A model generated the notes under the pieces. It did no database searches. It was not told the DNA's origin and worked only from the letters and a program-made list of their open reading frames with translations. Below are positions 25,412 to 30,497 of a stretch of DNA of 64,000 nucleotides, piece by piece. The stretch comes from Eledone cirrhosa. Lineage: Eukaryota. Within the stretch, counting starts at the first letter, position 1; every line of letters starts with the position of its first letter. The stretch is taken from assembly GCA_964016885.1 (NCBI GenBank), contig OZ024753.1, positions 12,834,001 to 12,898,000 of the forward strand, in the 5' to 3' direction. The position numbers and the translations under genes were made by a program.

Positions 25412-26180
25412 TTAATACAATAACAGAGGAAGCTTTAAGCTAAACTCCGACTGGTAACCATCTCACTTAACAAACATTAGGATATACGTTAGTATAATCC
25501 CAATTTTGTGTTTGGGGTGCTAACTATATGTATTTTGTGGAAAGCCAGTTGTATTATTTTATATGAGATATAATTAAAATTAAAATATATCTCTCTTTCC
25601 AAACAATTGTTTCATTATAAGTTTTCTACAAGTTGGGAGAATGTTTCCAGGTTATGTAGAAGCCTAACATATTTTCCTGTAAGAATATATGTAGGTGGCA
25701 CTTATAAATCATCAGTGGATGACCATTAAACTTGATATAAGAAAAAATTTCTTACCGCAGTTATTTTTCGTGTCCGCTAAGTCATCCCTTCAGGCATCGA
25801 ATGACCGCCAGATTTGAAATTCCAGCAGACTTTAGACTGAGGAAATATCATAGCGCCACGAAGCGGAAAAGGGAGACAATCGCGAGTCACAAGAAAAGTA
25901 AAATAATATACACATGGTTTAATTATTTTTTTCAAAAACATTATCAAGCCTGCGTGTTAAAAACTCAATTAATTTTAAAAAAATAAATGTATGCATGTAT
26001 TAATTAGACACGCATATAGATATTTTCTTAGGCTAAAAACAGAGAAGTGATACCTAAATAACAAACAATACCTCATGACAGTAATAAATACGGAAAGTTA
26101 CGTTTAAAAGGCATCTGGAAATATAAATCTCTGGCCAAATTAAGAGTAAAATATATACATATATATATATATACATACAC

Positions 26181-26227
<47 letters not shown>

Positions 26228-26231
26228 CACA

Positions 26232-26267
<36 letters not shown>

Positions 26268-26274
26268 CATACAC

Positions 26275-26313
<39 letters not shown>

Positions 26314-26337
26314 TATATACATATACATGTGTATATA

Positions 26338-26371
<34 letters not shown>

Positions 26372-26632
26372 CATATATATATACATATACATATATATAT
26401 ACATATACATGTGTATATATATATACATATATATATATACATATATATATATACATATATATATATACATATATACATATATATACATATATACATATAT
26501 ACATATATACATATATATACATATATATATATACATATATACATATATACATATATATACATATATATATATACATATATACATATATATATATACATAT
26601 ATACATATATATACATATATACATATATATAC

Positions 26633-26683
<51 letters not shown>

Positions 26684-26684
26684 C

Positions 26685-26731
<47 letters not shown>

Positions 26732-26746
26732 CATATATATATATAC

Positions 26747-26795
<49 letters not shown>

Positions 26796-26796
26796 C

Positions 26797-26843
<47 letters not shown>

Positions 26844-26964
26844 CATATATATATATACATATATATATACACATATATATATACATATATATATACATAT
26901 ATATATATATACATATATATATATACATATATATATATACATATATATATATACATATATATAT

Positions 26965-27516
26965 GGTGGCTGCCAACTCGTTTTCGAGTACGGCCACTAC
27001 TTTACATCCATGTAGGAGAGCCCCCACCGATGCGCTGAACGAGTGTGACTTTTTAGTCCAGCCAGCCACCTGAAAACTCTGGTACAAACACTACACCTGT
27101 GACAATTATTGACACATAGTGCTGGGCCCATGGTACCATGTGACGACAAGTGCAGAGATCTCCAGATATAAAGCAATGCCTGTGCCGTGAAGCTTTTATA
27201 GTGAGCAAAGGCACTGCACAAAGCCAGTCCCACTCTCTTAACCAAGATGATATTTACCAAAAAGAAGAACAAGTCAACATCATTGGATACCATCAGGGTT
27301 GCAGGTGTTATATCAGAGTTTTCCTTCTCCTAGAATTCTGCCTTGACAAAGGCTAAGGGGTCATCTCTCCCGGTGATTTTGGATGGCCATTGACTCTTAA
27401 GAGCTCCTTTGCCCTTTGACAGGTTTTGTTTTTAGTCCTGCAGGATGTCCAAAGTCACCCTCCTCACCAAGAAACCTTGGTGGGGTTGCCAGTTTAGTCG
27501 CCAACGACCCGACCAT
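26965..27516 (-). mobile_element. Non-autonomous RTE-derived element, copy 1
   Basis: Minus strand carries an RTE-type 5'UTR motif CTAGGAGAAGGAAAACTCTGA and a remnant C-x2-C-x12-H finger ([17 protein letters not shown] in sister copies); its 3' end GCAGCCACC joins (AT)n. Confidence 0.75.
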
Positions 27517-27961
27517 ATATATATATACAGACATATATATACACATACATATATATATATATACAGACACATATATACACACACATATATATATATATAT
27601 ATATACAGACACATATATACACATACATATATACACATATATATACACAGACGTATACATACACATACATATATACACATATATATATACACACATACAC
27701 ATATACACATATATACACACATATACATACATATATATACACACATACATATATATACATACACATACATACACATATATACATACATATATATACATAC
27801 ATACATATACACATATACACATACATACACATACACATATATACACACACATACACATACATACACATATACATACATATATATATACATACACATATAC
27901 ACACACATACATATATATACATACACATATATACACACATATACACACACATATATATATA

Positions 27962-28172
27962 CATCATCATCAACGTTCAACGTCCGTGCCCCACGCCCGC
28001 ACGGGCCCGGACGGGGGCAGTCCCACTCGAGGCAAGAGCGACCGCCCCGCCCGCATAGGACCCCCTGGCAGGCCTCCCACAGCCGGATGCCCCCCCCAAC
28101 ACCAACCACACCCACAGCGTGGGGCTAGGAGGCCCCTACCGCGCTGCCCACACGGCCACACTACAGCGTCGA
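27962..28172 (-). mobile_element. Retroposon fragment with (GAT)n tail, extremely T-poor on the + strand
   Basis: (CAT)n then CGTTCAACGTCCG...GGATGCCC...AACACCAACCAC resembles a common RTE-tailed repeat (from recall); 16 T in 200 nt. Confidence 0.65.
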
Positions 28173-28974
28173 TATATATATAAGGACATGTATATATGTA
28201 TGTATACATACATACACATACATATACACACACATATACATATATATATATACATACATACATATATATATATACATACATACATACATATACATATACA
28301 TACACACATACACATATATACATACATACATATATATATATATACATACATATATACATACACATACATACATACATATACATACATACATATATATACA
28401 TACATACATACATATATATACATACATACATATATATACATACATACATACATACATACACATATACGTACATATATACATATACATACATACATACATA
28501 CATACACATACATACATACATATATATATATACGTACATACATACATATATATACGTACATATATACACACACATACATACATACATACATATACATACA
28601 TACACACATATACATACATACATACATATACATACATACATACACACATATACATACATACATATATATACGTACACATATATATATATATACGTACATA
28701 TATATATATATACATACATACATATATATATACATACATACATACACACATACACATACATACATACACACATATATATACATACATACACACATATATA
28801 TACATACATATATATATACACATATACATATACATACATATATATATATACATACATATACATATATATATATATACATACATATATACATATATATATA
28901 TACATACATATATACATATATATACATACATATACATACATATACATACACATATACATATACATATATACATA

Positions 28975-29008
<34 letters not shown>

Positions 29009-29815
29009 CACATACATATATACATACATATACATACATATATACATATATATATATACATACATATACACATATATATATACATACATATACATATATA
29101 TATATACATACATATACATATATATATATACATACATATACATATATATATATACATACATACATACATACACATATACATATATATATACACATATATA
29201 TATACATACATATATACATATATATATACATACATATATATATACACATATATACATACATACATAGATATATACATATACATACATATATATATATACA
29301 CATATATATATATATACATATATACATATATACATATATATATACATACACATACACACATATATACATATATATATACATACACATACATATATATATA
29401 CATATATATATACATACATATATATATACATACACATATATATAGATACACATATACATACATACATATATATATATATATACATATATATATACATACA
29501 TACATACATACACATATACATATATACACACATATATACATACATACATATACACACATATACATACACACATACATACACATATATATACACATATACA
29601 TATATATATACATATATACATACATATATATATACATACACATATACATATATATATACATATATACATATATATATATATACATACACATATACATACA
29701 TATATGCATACATATATACATACATACACATATGCATACACATATACATACATATATACATATACACATATACATACATATATATATATATACATACATA
29801 TATACATATATATAT

Positions 29816-29901
29816 GGTGGCTGCCAACTCGTTTTCGAGTACGGCCACTACTTTATATCCATATAGGAGAACCCCTACCGATGCGCTGAACGAGTGTGAC
29901 C
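29816..29901 (-). mobile_element. RTE-derived element, 3'-terminal fragment (copy 2)
   Basis: Near-identical to 26965-27049. Confidence 0.85.
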
Positions 29902-30099
29902 ATATATATATACATATATATATATATACATATATATATATACATATATATATATACATATATATATATACATATATATATATACATATATATATACATA
30001 TACATATATATATACATATATATATACATATATATATATACATATATATATATACATATACATATATATATACATATATATATACATATATATATATAC

Positions 30100-30144
<45 letters not shown>

Positions 30145-30497
30145 CATATATATATTTACATATATATATACATATATATACATACATATATATATATACA
30201 TATATATACATATATATATATATACATATATATATATACATATATATATATACATATATATATATACATATATATATATACATATATACATATATATATA
30301 TACATACATATATATATATATACATATATATATATACATATATATATATACATATATATATATACATATATATATATACATATATATATACACATATATA
30401 CATATACATATATATATATACATATATATATATACATATATATATACACATATATACATATATACACATATATACATATATATATATACATATATAC

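What the first reader, a model, noticed from the sequence alone, without database searches (positions are those of the whole stretch)
27962..28172. Repeat copy with a one-way T>C skew: possible ADAR-hyperedited RNA retrotransposed into the genome
Seen: 27971-28170 has 16 T, 39 A and ~72% GC in very AT-rich DNA, with C-runs such as GTGCCCCACGCCCGCACGGGCCCGG and GGATGCCCCCCCCAAC. From recall (unverified), this repeat family reads roughly CGTTTAACGTCCGTTTTCCATGCTGGCATGGGTTGGACGG...GGATGCCCTTCCTAAC, so most differences would be T>C, i.e. A>G on the element's sense (minus) strand. Several surviving Ts are in TC (minus-strand GA), the context ADAR disfavours. Known: reverse transcriptase reads inosine as G, and coleoid cephalopods edit RNA heavily. 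Inference: a genomic fossil of A-to-I hyper-editing.
Basis: partly seen in the sequence, partly recalled or inferred. Interest (0 to 1): 0.8.

Follow-up and report, generated by a model that had tools for sequence, protein, structure and literature searches.

The report
Edited RNA fossilised in mollusc genome
A 200-base piece of a jumping-gene copy in a mollusc genome assembly has 41 of its 58 adenines replaced by guanine on one strand, as do similar copies elsewhere in the assembly, likely because an RNA-editing enzyme altered the RNA before it was likely copied back into the chromosome, which would make RNA edits heritable.

Summary
Confirmed. Window 27971-28169 is the 3' UTR end of an abundant LINE (sense on the minus strand). 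Against the family majority it has 41 T>C at 58 T and 0 A>G at 38 A. It sits in a composite unit with three sister copies on other contigs. One sister is almost unchanged. In the others T>C falls in hairpins, (AT)n arrays and the LINE piece, not in unpaired sequence. Over 12 such places the pooled neighbour bias is that of ADAR (5' U 0.63, A 0.62, C 0.36, G 0.22); this copy alone does not show it. Another copy has a 17-bp target-site duplication and a 5' inversion where the direction of change flips. A fold-back copy is changed in both arms, only where they pair. Best reading (0.8): hyper-edited double-stranded read-through RNA, written into DNA by target-primed reverse transcription from a SINE-like element X. 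Such copies are rare (8 motif hits against 46,340). There is no second-platform check: the supporting contigs come from one sample, and Illumina runs of other animals miss the site.

The parts
27971..28169 (-). 3' UTR end of an abundant LINE (RTE-like), A>G-hyperchanged on its sense strand: 41 of 58 A
   Evidence: intact copies run into a 439-aa frame with Pfam RVT_1, E 2e-25
27962..27970 (-). remnant of the LINE's (GAT)n tail
   Evidence: sequence; alignment
28170..28192 (-). junction shared with sister units L002 and L006; the window copy stops about 9 nt into the arm of a -89 kcal/mol hairpin that the sisters carry whole (inferred 5' truncation or template jump)
27521..27961 (-). internal (AT)n array of the unit: 27 T>C against 5 C>T relative to the near-unedited sister; C/(C+T) 0.44 against 0.28
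   Evidence: arrays align loosely, so counts are approximate
26964..27517 (-). element X, a SINE-like retroposon of about 613 nt, here positions 1-554 (5'-truncated), almost unedited (2 T>C at 148 T against L006); inferred priming end of the retrocopy at about 26964
   Evidence: 91 of 95 high-identity copies keep this end, 31 are cut at the other end
26151..26963 (.). (AT)n array at the 3' end of X (tail and/or target site); no target-site duplication can be resolved in it
28193..29816 (.). C-rich (AT)n array, C/(C+T) 0.35, like the arrays of the edited sisters (0.28-0.38); whether it belongs to the cDNA or the target is unresolved
29814..29900 (-). second, 87-nt 5'-truncated X copy in the same orientation

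Best explanation
The window copy has 41 of 58 adenines replaced by guanine on the element's sense strand, and it is likely a DNA copy of an RNA that an ADAR enzyme likely hyper-edited before a LINE reverse transcriptase likely inserted it. Steps: (1) Shown: the copy belongs to a unit [X - (AT)n - LINE 3' piece - hairpin 1 - (AT)n - hairpin 2] found at four places with different flanks, one of them (L006, C3:374.56 Mb) almost unchanged. (2) Inferred: a long minus-strand transcript runs through a donor like L006. There, inverted LINE copies lie 4 kb (96%) and 9 kb (100%) upstream and would pair with the UTR piece; the hairpins and (AU)n pair with themselves. (3) Inferred: ADAR deaminates A in the paired parts only. 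(4) Inferred: reverse transcription primes at the (AT)n tail of X in a genomic (AT)n array and puts C opposite inosine. It copies X, the array and the LINE piece, and stops or jumps at the base of hairpin 1. (5) Inferred: this happened in the germ line, recently, and independently for each sister.
For: One-way spectrum: 41 T>C, 0 A>G; background in 146 other places is symmetric (T>C 709, A>G 672, C>T 901, G>A 867). Confinement to paired sequence: sister L002 has 15/30 and 10/41 in two hairpins, in both arms on one strand, 17/61 in the LINE piece, and 0/26, 0/20 and 1/148 in unpaired parts; L003 has 14/41 in hairpin 2 and 0/20 beside it. Fold-back copy L228: both arms are A>G on one strand; the long arm has 17/110 inside the paired span and 0/251 outside. 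Pooled neighbours over 15 segments at 12 places: 5' U 139/222, A 245/394, C 125/350, G 44/202; 3' G is highest at 143/240. This matches the ADAR motif given in PMC4365171. Copy L215 has a 17-bp target-site duplication and a 5' inversion, and the direction of change flips at the junction. Its LINE pieces lie antisense to X and the changes follow X, not the LINE. In L003 a perfect 129-pair hairpin between two edited parts has no G-U pair. The window has no inverted LINE partner; the L006 region has. Sisters differ in their edit sets. Run X1 holds the left 158 nt exactly at depth 5.8 and the right 80 nt exactly at depth 10.8. The genome encodes ADAR-family deaminase domains at 4 places.
Against: No second platform or individual: the RAD-seq Illumina runs X4 and X5 cover only 27962-27996, with unedited family reads (169 and 143). 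No contig spans the whole stretch, the two supporting pieces are joined to other copies, and run X3 of the same sample holds 0.04 of the words. This copy alone shows no 5' G depletion (6/8). No target-site duplication is visible in the window. L006 is not the exact donor: the three edited sisters share two X variants that it lacks. The partner strand is inferred; the UTR does not fold on itself (z -0.7). Most edited copies were found with edited queries, and pooled sites reuse the same family positions, so the p-values overstate independence. No RNA run was listed.
Confidence: 0.8

Rival explanations
1. Sequencing, polishing or assembly artefact: systematic T>C miscalls next to long (AT)n arrays and hairpins.
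For: The copy lies between long AT arrays. Read support is from one sample of unrecorded platform, no record spans the stretch, and X3 nearly lacks it. Same-type mismatch clusters caused by a sequencing error are documented (G-to-A; PMC2873906, passages).
Against: The same hairpins are clean in L006 and changed in L002. A perfect hairpin between edited parts is untouched in L003. The direction flips at a retro-inversion junction. The pooled neighbour bias is the ADAR one. L228's edited arm is not flanked by long AT arrays. Window-specific 31-mers (108 of 128 and 46 of 50) lie in contigs of depth 5.8 and 10.8.
Confidence: 0.07
2. Change in place: a deaminase acts on DNA at the locus (ADAR on the DNA strand of R-loops, or another adenine deaminase), or edited RNA of the same locus templates local repair.
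For: ADARs can deaminate dA in model DNA:RNA hybrids (review passage, PMC12925331). (AT)n arrays keep one C/G polarity over tens of kb in these regions. L004 and L014 have inverted LINE copies close by.
Against: The window has no inverted partner for the edited UTR. In L004 the neighbouring inverted arm is not changed. Direction flips inside one insertion bounded by a target-site duplication. Unpaired sequence between edited parts is spared.
Confidence: 0.08
3. Error-prone reverse transcription (C put opposite A under skewed dNTP pools), with no RNA editing.
For: It would also give one-way A>G on the sense strand of retrocopies with target-site duplications (inference).
Against: It cannot readily spare X (1-2 of 148) and unpaired spacers (0 of 46) in the same cDNA while changing 25-70% of A in paired parts, nor stop at the pairing boundary in L228.
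Confidence: 0.03
4. An old or GC-rich subfamily, or ordinary drift: the C-rich form is inherited from a C-rich master.
For: About 15 C sites are shared by the three edited sisters.
Against: The shared sites are also C in unrelated copies L004 and L005. Edit sets are not nested. Other substitutions are nearly absent. The C form is 8 hits against 46,340.
Confidence: 0.02

Closest known systems
[quoted passage not shown]
   Same: ADAR-type hyper-editing of a retroelement RNA, including an inverted-repeat region with about half of the A changed, carried into DNA by reverse transcription.
   Different: Those are infectious LTR retroviruses. Here the carrier is a non-LTR SINE/LINE system, the cargo is read-through host repeat RNA, and the copies lie in chromosomes of an invertebrate assembly.
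APOBEC DNA editing of LTR retrotransposons (Knisbacher and Levanon, PMC4866542, passages; Zaranek et al., PMC2873906, passages)
   Same: Single retro-copies with a strand-biased, clustered, one-type hypermutation against the subfamily consensus, fixed in a genome.
   Different: That is G>A by C-to-U deamination of cDNA, in LTR elements of vertebrates; 19 invertebrate genomes were devoid of it. Here it is A>G, tied to paired RNA, in non-LTR copies of a mollusc.
A-to-I hyper-editing of repeat RNA (Porath et al., PMC4365171; repeat-directed editing in squid, Albertin et al., PMC9068888; passages of both)
   Same: Clustered A>G, 5' G depleted and 3' G enriched, in inverted repeats.
   Different: Those are differences between RNA and DNA; here the changed state is in the DNA assembly.
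ADAR1 restriction of human L1 (Orecchini et al., PMC5224506, passages)
   Same: ADAR meets non-LTR retrotransposon RNA.
   Different: No editing was found in more than 2.5 kb of L1 RNA and the restriction was editing-independent. Here editing is dense and the RNA was still inserted (inferred).
Retroprocessing of edited mRNAs in plant mitochondria and kinetoplastids (recalled; not read here)
   Same: RNA edits become genomic through cDNA.
   Different: Organellar C-to-U or U-insertion editing with replacement of the gene itself, not A-to-I in dispersed nuclear insertions.
RTE-clade LINEs of octopods (RTE-2_OV; Petrosino et al., PMC9115989, passages)
   Same: Young, abundant LINE with reverse transcriptase and a short-repeat tail in a cephalopod-like genome.
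   Different: Identity with RTE-2_OV was not tested, and that paper's passages report no edited genomic copies.

Membership tests
ADAR A-to-I hyper-editing product | Dense, one-type A>G change on one strand | tested here: met
   41/58 against 0/38; 8-85 A>G per segment over 15 segments
ADAR A-to-I hyper-editing product | 5' G depleted, 3' G enriched | tested here: met
   Pooled 5' G 44/202 against U 139/222 and A 245/394; 3' G 143/240. Not met in the window copy alone (6/8).
ADAR A-to-I hyper-editing product | Confined to double-stranded regions, both arms on the same strand | tested here: met
   (sisters and L228); for the window's LINE piece the partner is inferred from the L006 region
ADAR A-to-I hyper-editing product | ADAR gene in the genome | tested here: inconclusive
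   PF02137 over cut-off at 4 places; the family also holds ADAT1 and ADAD (recalled), and dsRNA-binding domains were not checked
ADAR A-to-I hyper-editing product | Inosine or RNA-DNA differences seen in RNA of the donor | not testable with these tools
   no RNA holder listed
Non-LTR retrocopy (target-primed reverse transcription) | Fixed 3' end with repeat tail and variable 5' truncation | tested here: met
   X: 91 of 95 copies keep the 3' end, 31 are 5'-truncated, 3 lack the 3' end but keep the 5' end; sisters end at different points
Non-LTR retrocopy (target-primed reverse transcription) | Target-site duplication | tested here: inconclusive
   17 bp at the edited copy L215; not resolvable in the window, whose ends lie in (AT)n; none convincing at L228
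Non-LTR retrocopy (target-primed reverse transcription) | 5' inversion (twin priming; mechanism recalled) | tested here: met
   L215, with flip of edit direction; not seen clearly in the window
RTE-clade LINE | Reverse transcriptase domain and short tandem-repeat 3' tail | tested here: met
   RVT_1 E 2.2e-25; (GAT)n tail; nearest atlas clusters are RVT_1 + PHD proteins of invertebrates
RTE-clade LINE | RT phylogeny inside the RTE clade; AP endonuclease in a single ORF | not tested
   the clade name rests on recalled resemblance; only the C-terminal 439 aa were examined
APOBEC DNA editing | G>A on the element's sense strand | tested here: not met
   1 G>A on the + strand and no C>T in the window copy

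The most novel reading that the evidence does not exclude
ADAR plus a microsatellite-targeting SINE form a standing RNA-to-DNA mutational route in this genome. Edited read-through RNAs are retro-copied in the germ line, and editing of (AU)n RNA is the source of the strand-polarised C interruptions of the (AT)n arrays around X (C over G at 45 against 6 left flanks and 47 against 9 right flanks of 56 loci; C share up from 0.21-0.28 to 0.36-0.44 in edited sisters). ADAR would then shape microsatellite sequence genome-wide, far beyond the rare hyper-edited LINE pieces. A target preference of X for (ATAC)n is not excluded as the cause of the polarity.
Probability: 0.25. Interest if true: 0.9.

Novelty: new variant of a known kind. 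Interest (0 to 1): 0.76.

Why it matters
If the bases hold on a second platform, these are direct cases of A-to-I edits becoming heritable nuclear DNA in an animal through retrotransposition. That route has been proposed to explain A>G substitutions at edited sites (PMC10209271, passage). I found no report of it for non-LTR copies in 10 paper searches, in a library that lacks most subscription journals. Each copy would be a single-molecule record of germ-line ADAR activity and of RNA structure. The copies also show that LINE reverse transcriptase reads through inosine-rich RNA. A published screen that found invertebrates devoid of edited retroelements was built for G>A in LTR elements. Practical point: such copies could mimic editing sites or SNP clusters when RNA reads are mapped. 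The effect is rare for the LINE 3' end (8 triple-C motif hits against 46,340).

Tried and rejected
Self-folding of the LINE UTR as the ADAR substrate: z -0.7 against 40 shuffles; rejected. An inverted partner inside the window: none; the inverted-repeat scan was swamped by (AT)n. Progressive editing along one lineage (L006 to L002 to L001/L003): L002's LINE sites nest in L001's, but 3 of its 10 hairpin-2 sites and 1 LINE site are absent in L003, so independent editing is preferred. L006 as the exact donor: not met. A search with the antisense-edited piece of L215 gave no further edited copies in the 4 other loci fetched of 39 other hits. Rfam on X: nothing reached a gathering score. No RNA holder listed: no evidence either way. 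RAD-seq runs do not cover the edited part: no evidence either way. No random genome sample was obtained, so the frequency rests on motif counts and on 112 places found with unedited queries. Of those, 1 (L160/L215) is clearly edited; 4 more have weak clusters of 7-9 changes of mixed types, taken as noise. Earlier scan notes: nothing relevant. PMC2987831 passages were irrelevant. Supplements of papers were not read and could hold A>G control screens.

Full report
Observation. The window is G000:C13:12,834,001-12,898,000 of a 3.0-Gb assembly. The genome carries molluscan haemocyanin units; blocks of seven on C1 would fit an octopod (recalled), so 'coleoid' is an inference. Aligned with 29 other copies, the stretch differs from the majority of 21 near-consensus copies by 41 T>C at 58 T, three other changes shared with sister copies, and no A>G at 38 A. 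The family majority is 52% GC. Its unedited 20-letter motif occurs 46,340 times in the genome and the triple-C form 8 times, against 0.2 expected. A mirror-direction motif gave 2 hits.

What the element is. Intact copies run into a 439-aa frame on the minus strand with a reverse transcriptase domain and end in (GAT)n. The stretch is therefore the 3' UTR end of a LINE, and T>C on the + strand is A>G on its sense strand. The RTE clade is a recalled resemblance and was not tested by a tree.

The unit is larger than the repeat. L001 (window), L002, L003 and L006 share a unit: element X, an (AT)n array, the LINE piece and, where kept, hairpin 1 with a spacer, a second array and hairpin 2. Their outer flanks differ. 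L006 is almost unchanged. Against it, L002 has 17/61 T>C in the LINE piece, 15/30 in hairpin 1 and 10/41 in hairpin 2, but 0/26 and 0/20 in the spacers and 1/148 in X. L003 has 14/41 in hairpin 2 and 0/20 beside it. The window has 41/61 in the LINE piece and 2/148 in X. Both arms of each hairpin are changed on the same strand. The window copy ends about 9 nt into the arm of hairpin 1. X keeps its left end in 91 of 95 copies and is cut on the right in 31, the pattern of a retroposon whose 3' end lies left, on the minus strand. That is the edited strand. The LINE UTR does not fold on itself and has no inverted partner in the window. The L006 region has partners at 96% and 100% identity, 4 and 9 kb upstream on that strand. 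L006 lacks two X variants shared by the three edited sisters, so it is donor-like and not the exact donor.

Other copies test the mechanism. A scan of 159 fetched places for clusters of any mismatch type gave strong clusters almost only of A>G/T>C. Most of those places came from searches with edited queries. Among 112 places found with unedited queries, one is clearly edited and four show weak clusters of mixed type. Background outside edited places is symmetric (146 places). Over 15 segments at 12 places, the share of A changed by 5' neighbour is U 0.63, A 0.62, C 0.36, G 0.22, and by 3' neighbour G 0.60, A 0.53, C 0.38, U 0.37. This agrees with the ADAR motif in PMC4365171 (passages). The sites are not independent, and the window copy alone has 6 of 8 changed after G. 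L215 is bounded by a 17-bp duplication and runs from the 3' end of X through antisense LINE pieces to an inverted 5' piece. The changes follow X's strand up to the junction and reverse beyond it, so they predate the insertion. L228, found with the mirror motif, is a fold-back LINE: the antisense arm has 36/69 and the sense arm 17/110 inside the paired span and 0/251 outside. The other mirror hit is an older, mixed copy near L014 (14 against 9). Of three new triple-C hits, L225 (17 of 27 changes) lies behind an X, L227 (16 of 41) is older, and L226 has only 4. In L003 a 129-pair perfect hairpin between edited parts has no G-U pair, so it probably arrived after the edits were fixed. X lies downstream in the fitting orientation at 9 of the 12 places, counting a 92-nt fragment at L023 and counting three sisters apart. 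None was seen in the flanks fetched for L007, L014, L057, L227 or L228, where the LINE's own tail could prime.

Reads. Six runs were listed, none as RNA; four were laid at 88% likeness. A contig of X1 (depth 5.8) matches 27962-28119 exactly and then differs at seven places; the five listed are among the seven by which L004 differs there. It reads as a graph join of two edited copies. Another contig (depth 10.8) matches 28090-28169 exactly. Of the 31-mers in these parts, 108 of 128 and 46 of 50 occur in no other fetched locus. X3 holds a contig with 18 differences, the number that separates L004 from the window. X1 and X3 are one sample, possibly the assembly's source, so this argues against random error but is not independent. 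No record spans the stretch. The two RAD-seq runs of other animals cover only the tail end, with unedited family reads.

Mechanism. Shown: spectrum, strand, confinement to paired parts, pooled neighbour bias, and the insertion hallmarks at L215. Inferred: the read-through transcript, its partner strand, ADAR as the enzyme (PF02137 at 4 places, without telling ADAR from ADAT1), priming at X, and germ-line timing. I put this at 0.8, change in place at 0.08, artefact at 0.07, reverse-transcriptase error at 0.03 and an inherited C-rich subfamily at 0.02.

Known and new. I saw passages only of PMC12925331 (A-to-G hypermutated avian retroviruses), PMC4866542 and PMC2873906 (APOBEC G-to-A copies; invertebrates devoid), PMC9068888 (repeat-directed editing in squid), PMC5224506 (no editing of L1 RNA), PMC9115989 (active RTE in octopus) and PMC10209271 (proposed link from editing to DNA mutation). 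Twin priming and organellar retroprocessing are recalled. Ten searches listed no paper on ADAR-hyper-edited non-LTR copies in an animal genome; I saw only their listings and abstract openings apart from the papers named, and the library is incomplete. It works like the avian retrovirus cases and parallels APOBEC-edited LTR copies, but differs in enzyme, element class and host. Verdict: a real feature of the assembly, a new variant of a known kind, interest 0.76. The bolder reading, that ADAR also supplies the polarised C interruptions of the (AT)n arrays, stays open at about 0.25.

Noticed in passing
window 26964-27517, 29814-29900, 37830-38417, 41983-42591, 55021-55187: All five high-identity X copies in the window share one orientation, as do X copies within each other fetched region; X is flanked by (AT)n or (ATAC)n on both sides, which suggests a microsatellite-targeting SINE with polarity. 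Its autonomous partner was not found.
   Followed up: partly
window 29901-34280 and 44000-47000; G000:C403:1400-31399: (AT)n arrays keep one polarity over many kb: only C interruptions on one strand (GC skew near -1 at 30001-34000), switching to mostly G near 45000-46000.
   Followed up: partly
L006 1315-1560 and 645-848 (minus): Two abundant young hairpin repeat families (2,417 and 1,631 first-look candidates) with near-perfect 50-60-bp stems and one unique flank; unclassified.
   Followed up: partly
G000:C22 about 14,124,250-14,124,530 (L003): A third element with a perfect 129-pair hairpin replaces part of the composite unit and is followed by a partial tandem copy.
   Followed up: partly
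L210 and L211 (C2:339.37 Mb and C2:330.70 Mb): Two X copies truncated at the same position (333) with the same right flank: another small family of sister units.
   Followed up: no
L225 3410-3455 and L023 about 1640: Edited copies carry pure C runs of 13-19 nt where the family has T/C mixes, which suggests slippage after editing; the L225 run also appears in a contig of run X1.
   Followed up: no
G000:C6:13644405-13646174: An adenosine-deaminase domain (PF02137) matched in two parts 800 bp apart within a 700-aa open frame, apparently intronless with a long insertion; possibly ADAT1 or a retrogene.
   Followed up: no
G000:C1:173.74-173.91 Mb, C26:21.93-22.02 Mb, C27:61-67 kb: Haemocyanin unit arrays: three seven-unit blocks on C1, two longer blocks in opposite orientation on C26, two units on C27.
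   Followed up: no
window 12086-13561, 48025-49218, 59936-60939, 56389-56917: Tandem arrays with units of 99 (15 copies, 99% alike), 41, 19 and 221 bp.
   Followed up: no
window from 46971: A run of N (assembly gap) starts at 46971, at the end of the long (AT)n region.
   Followed up: no
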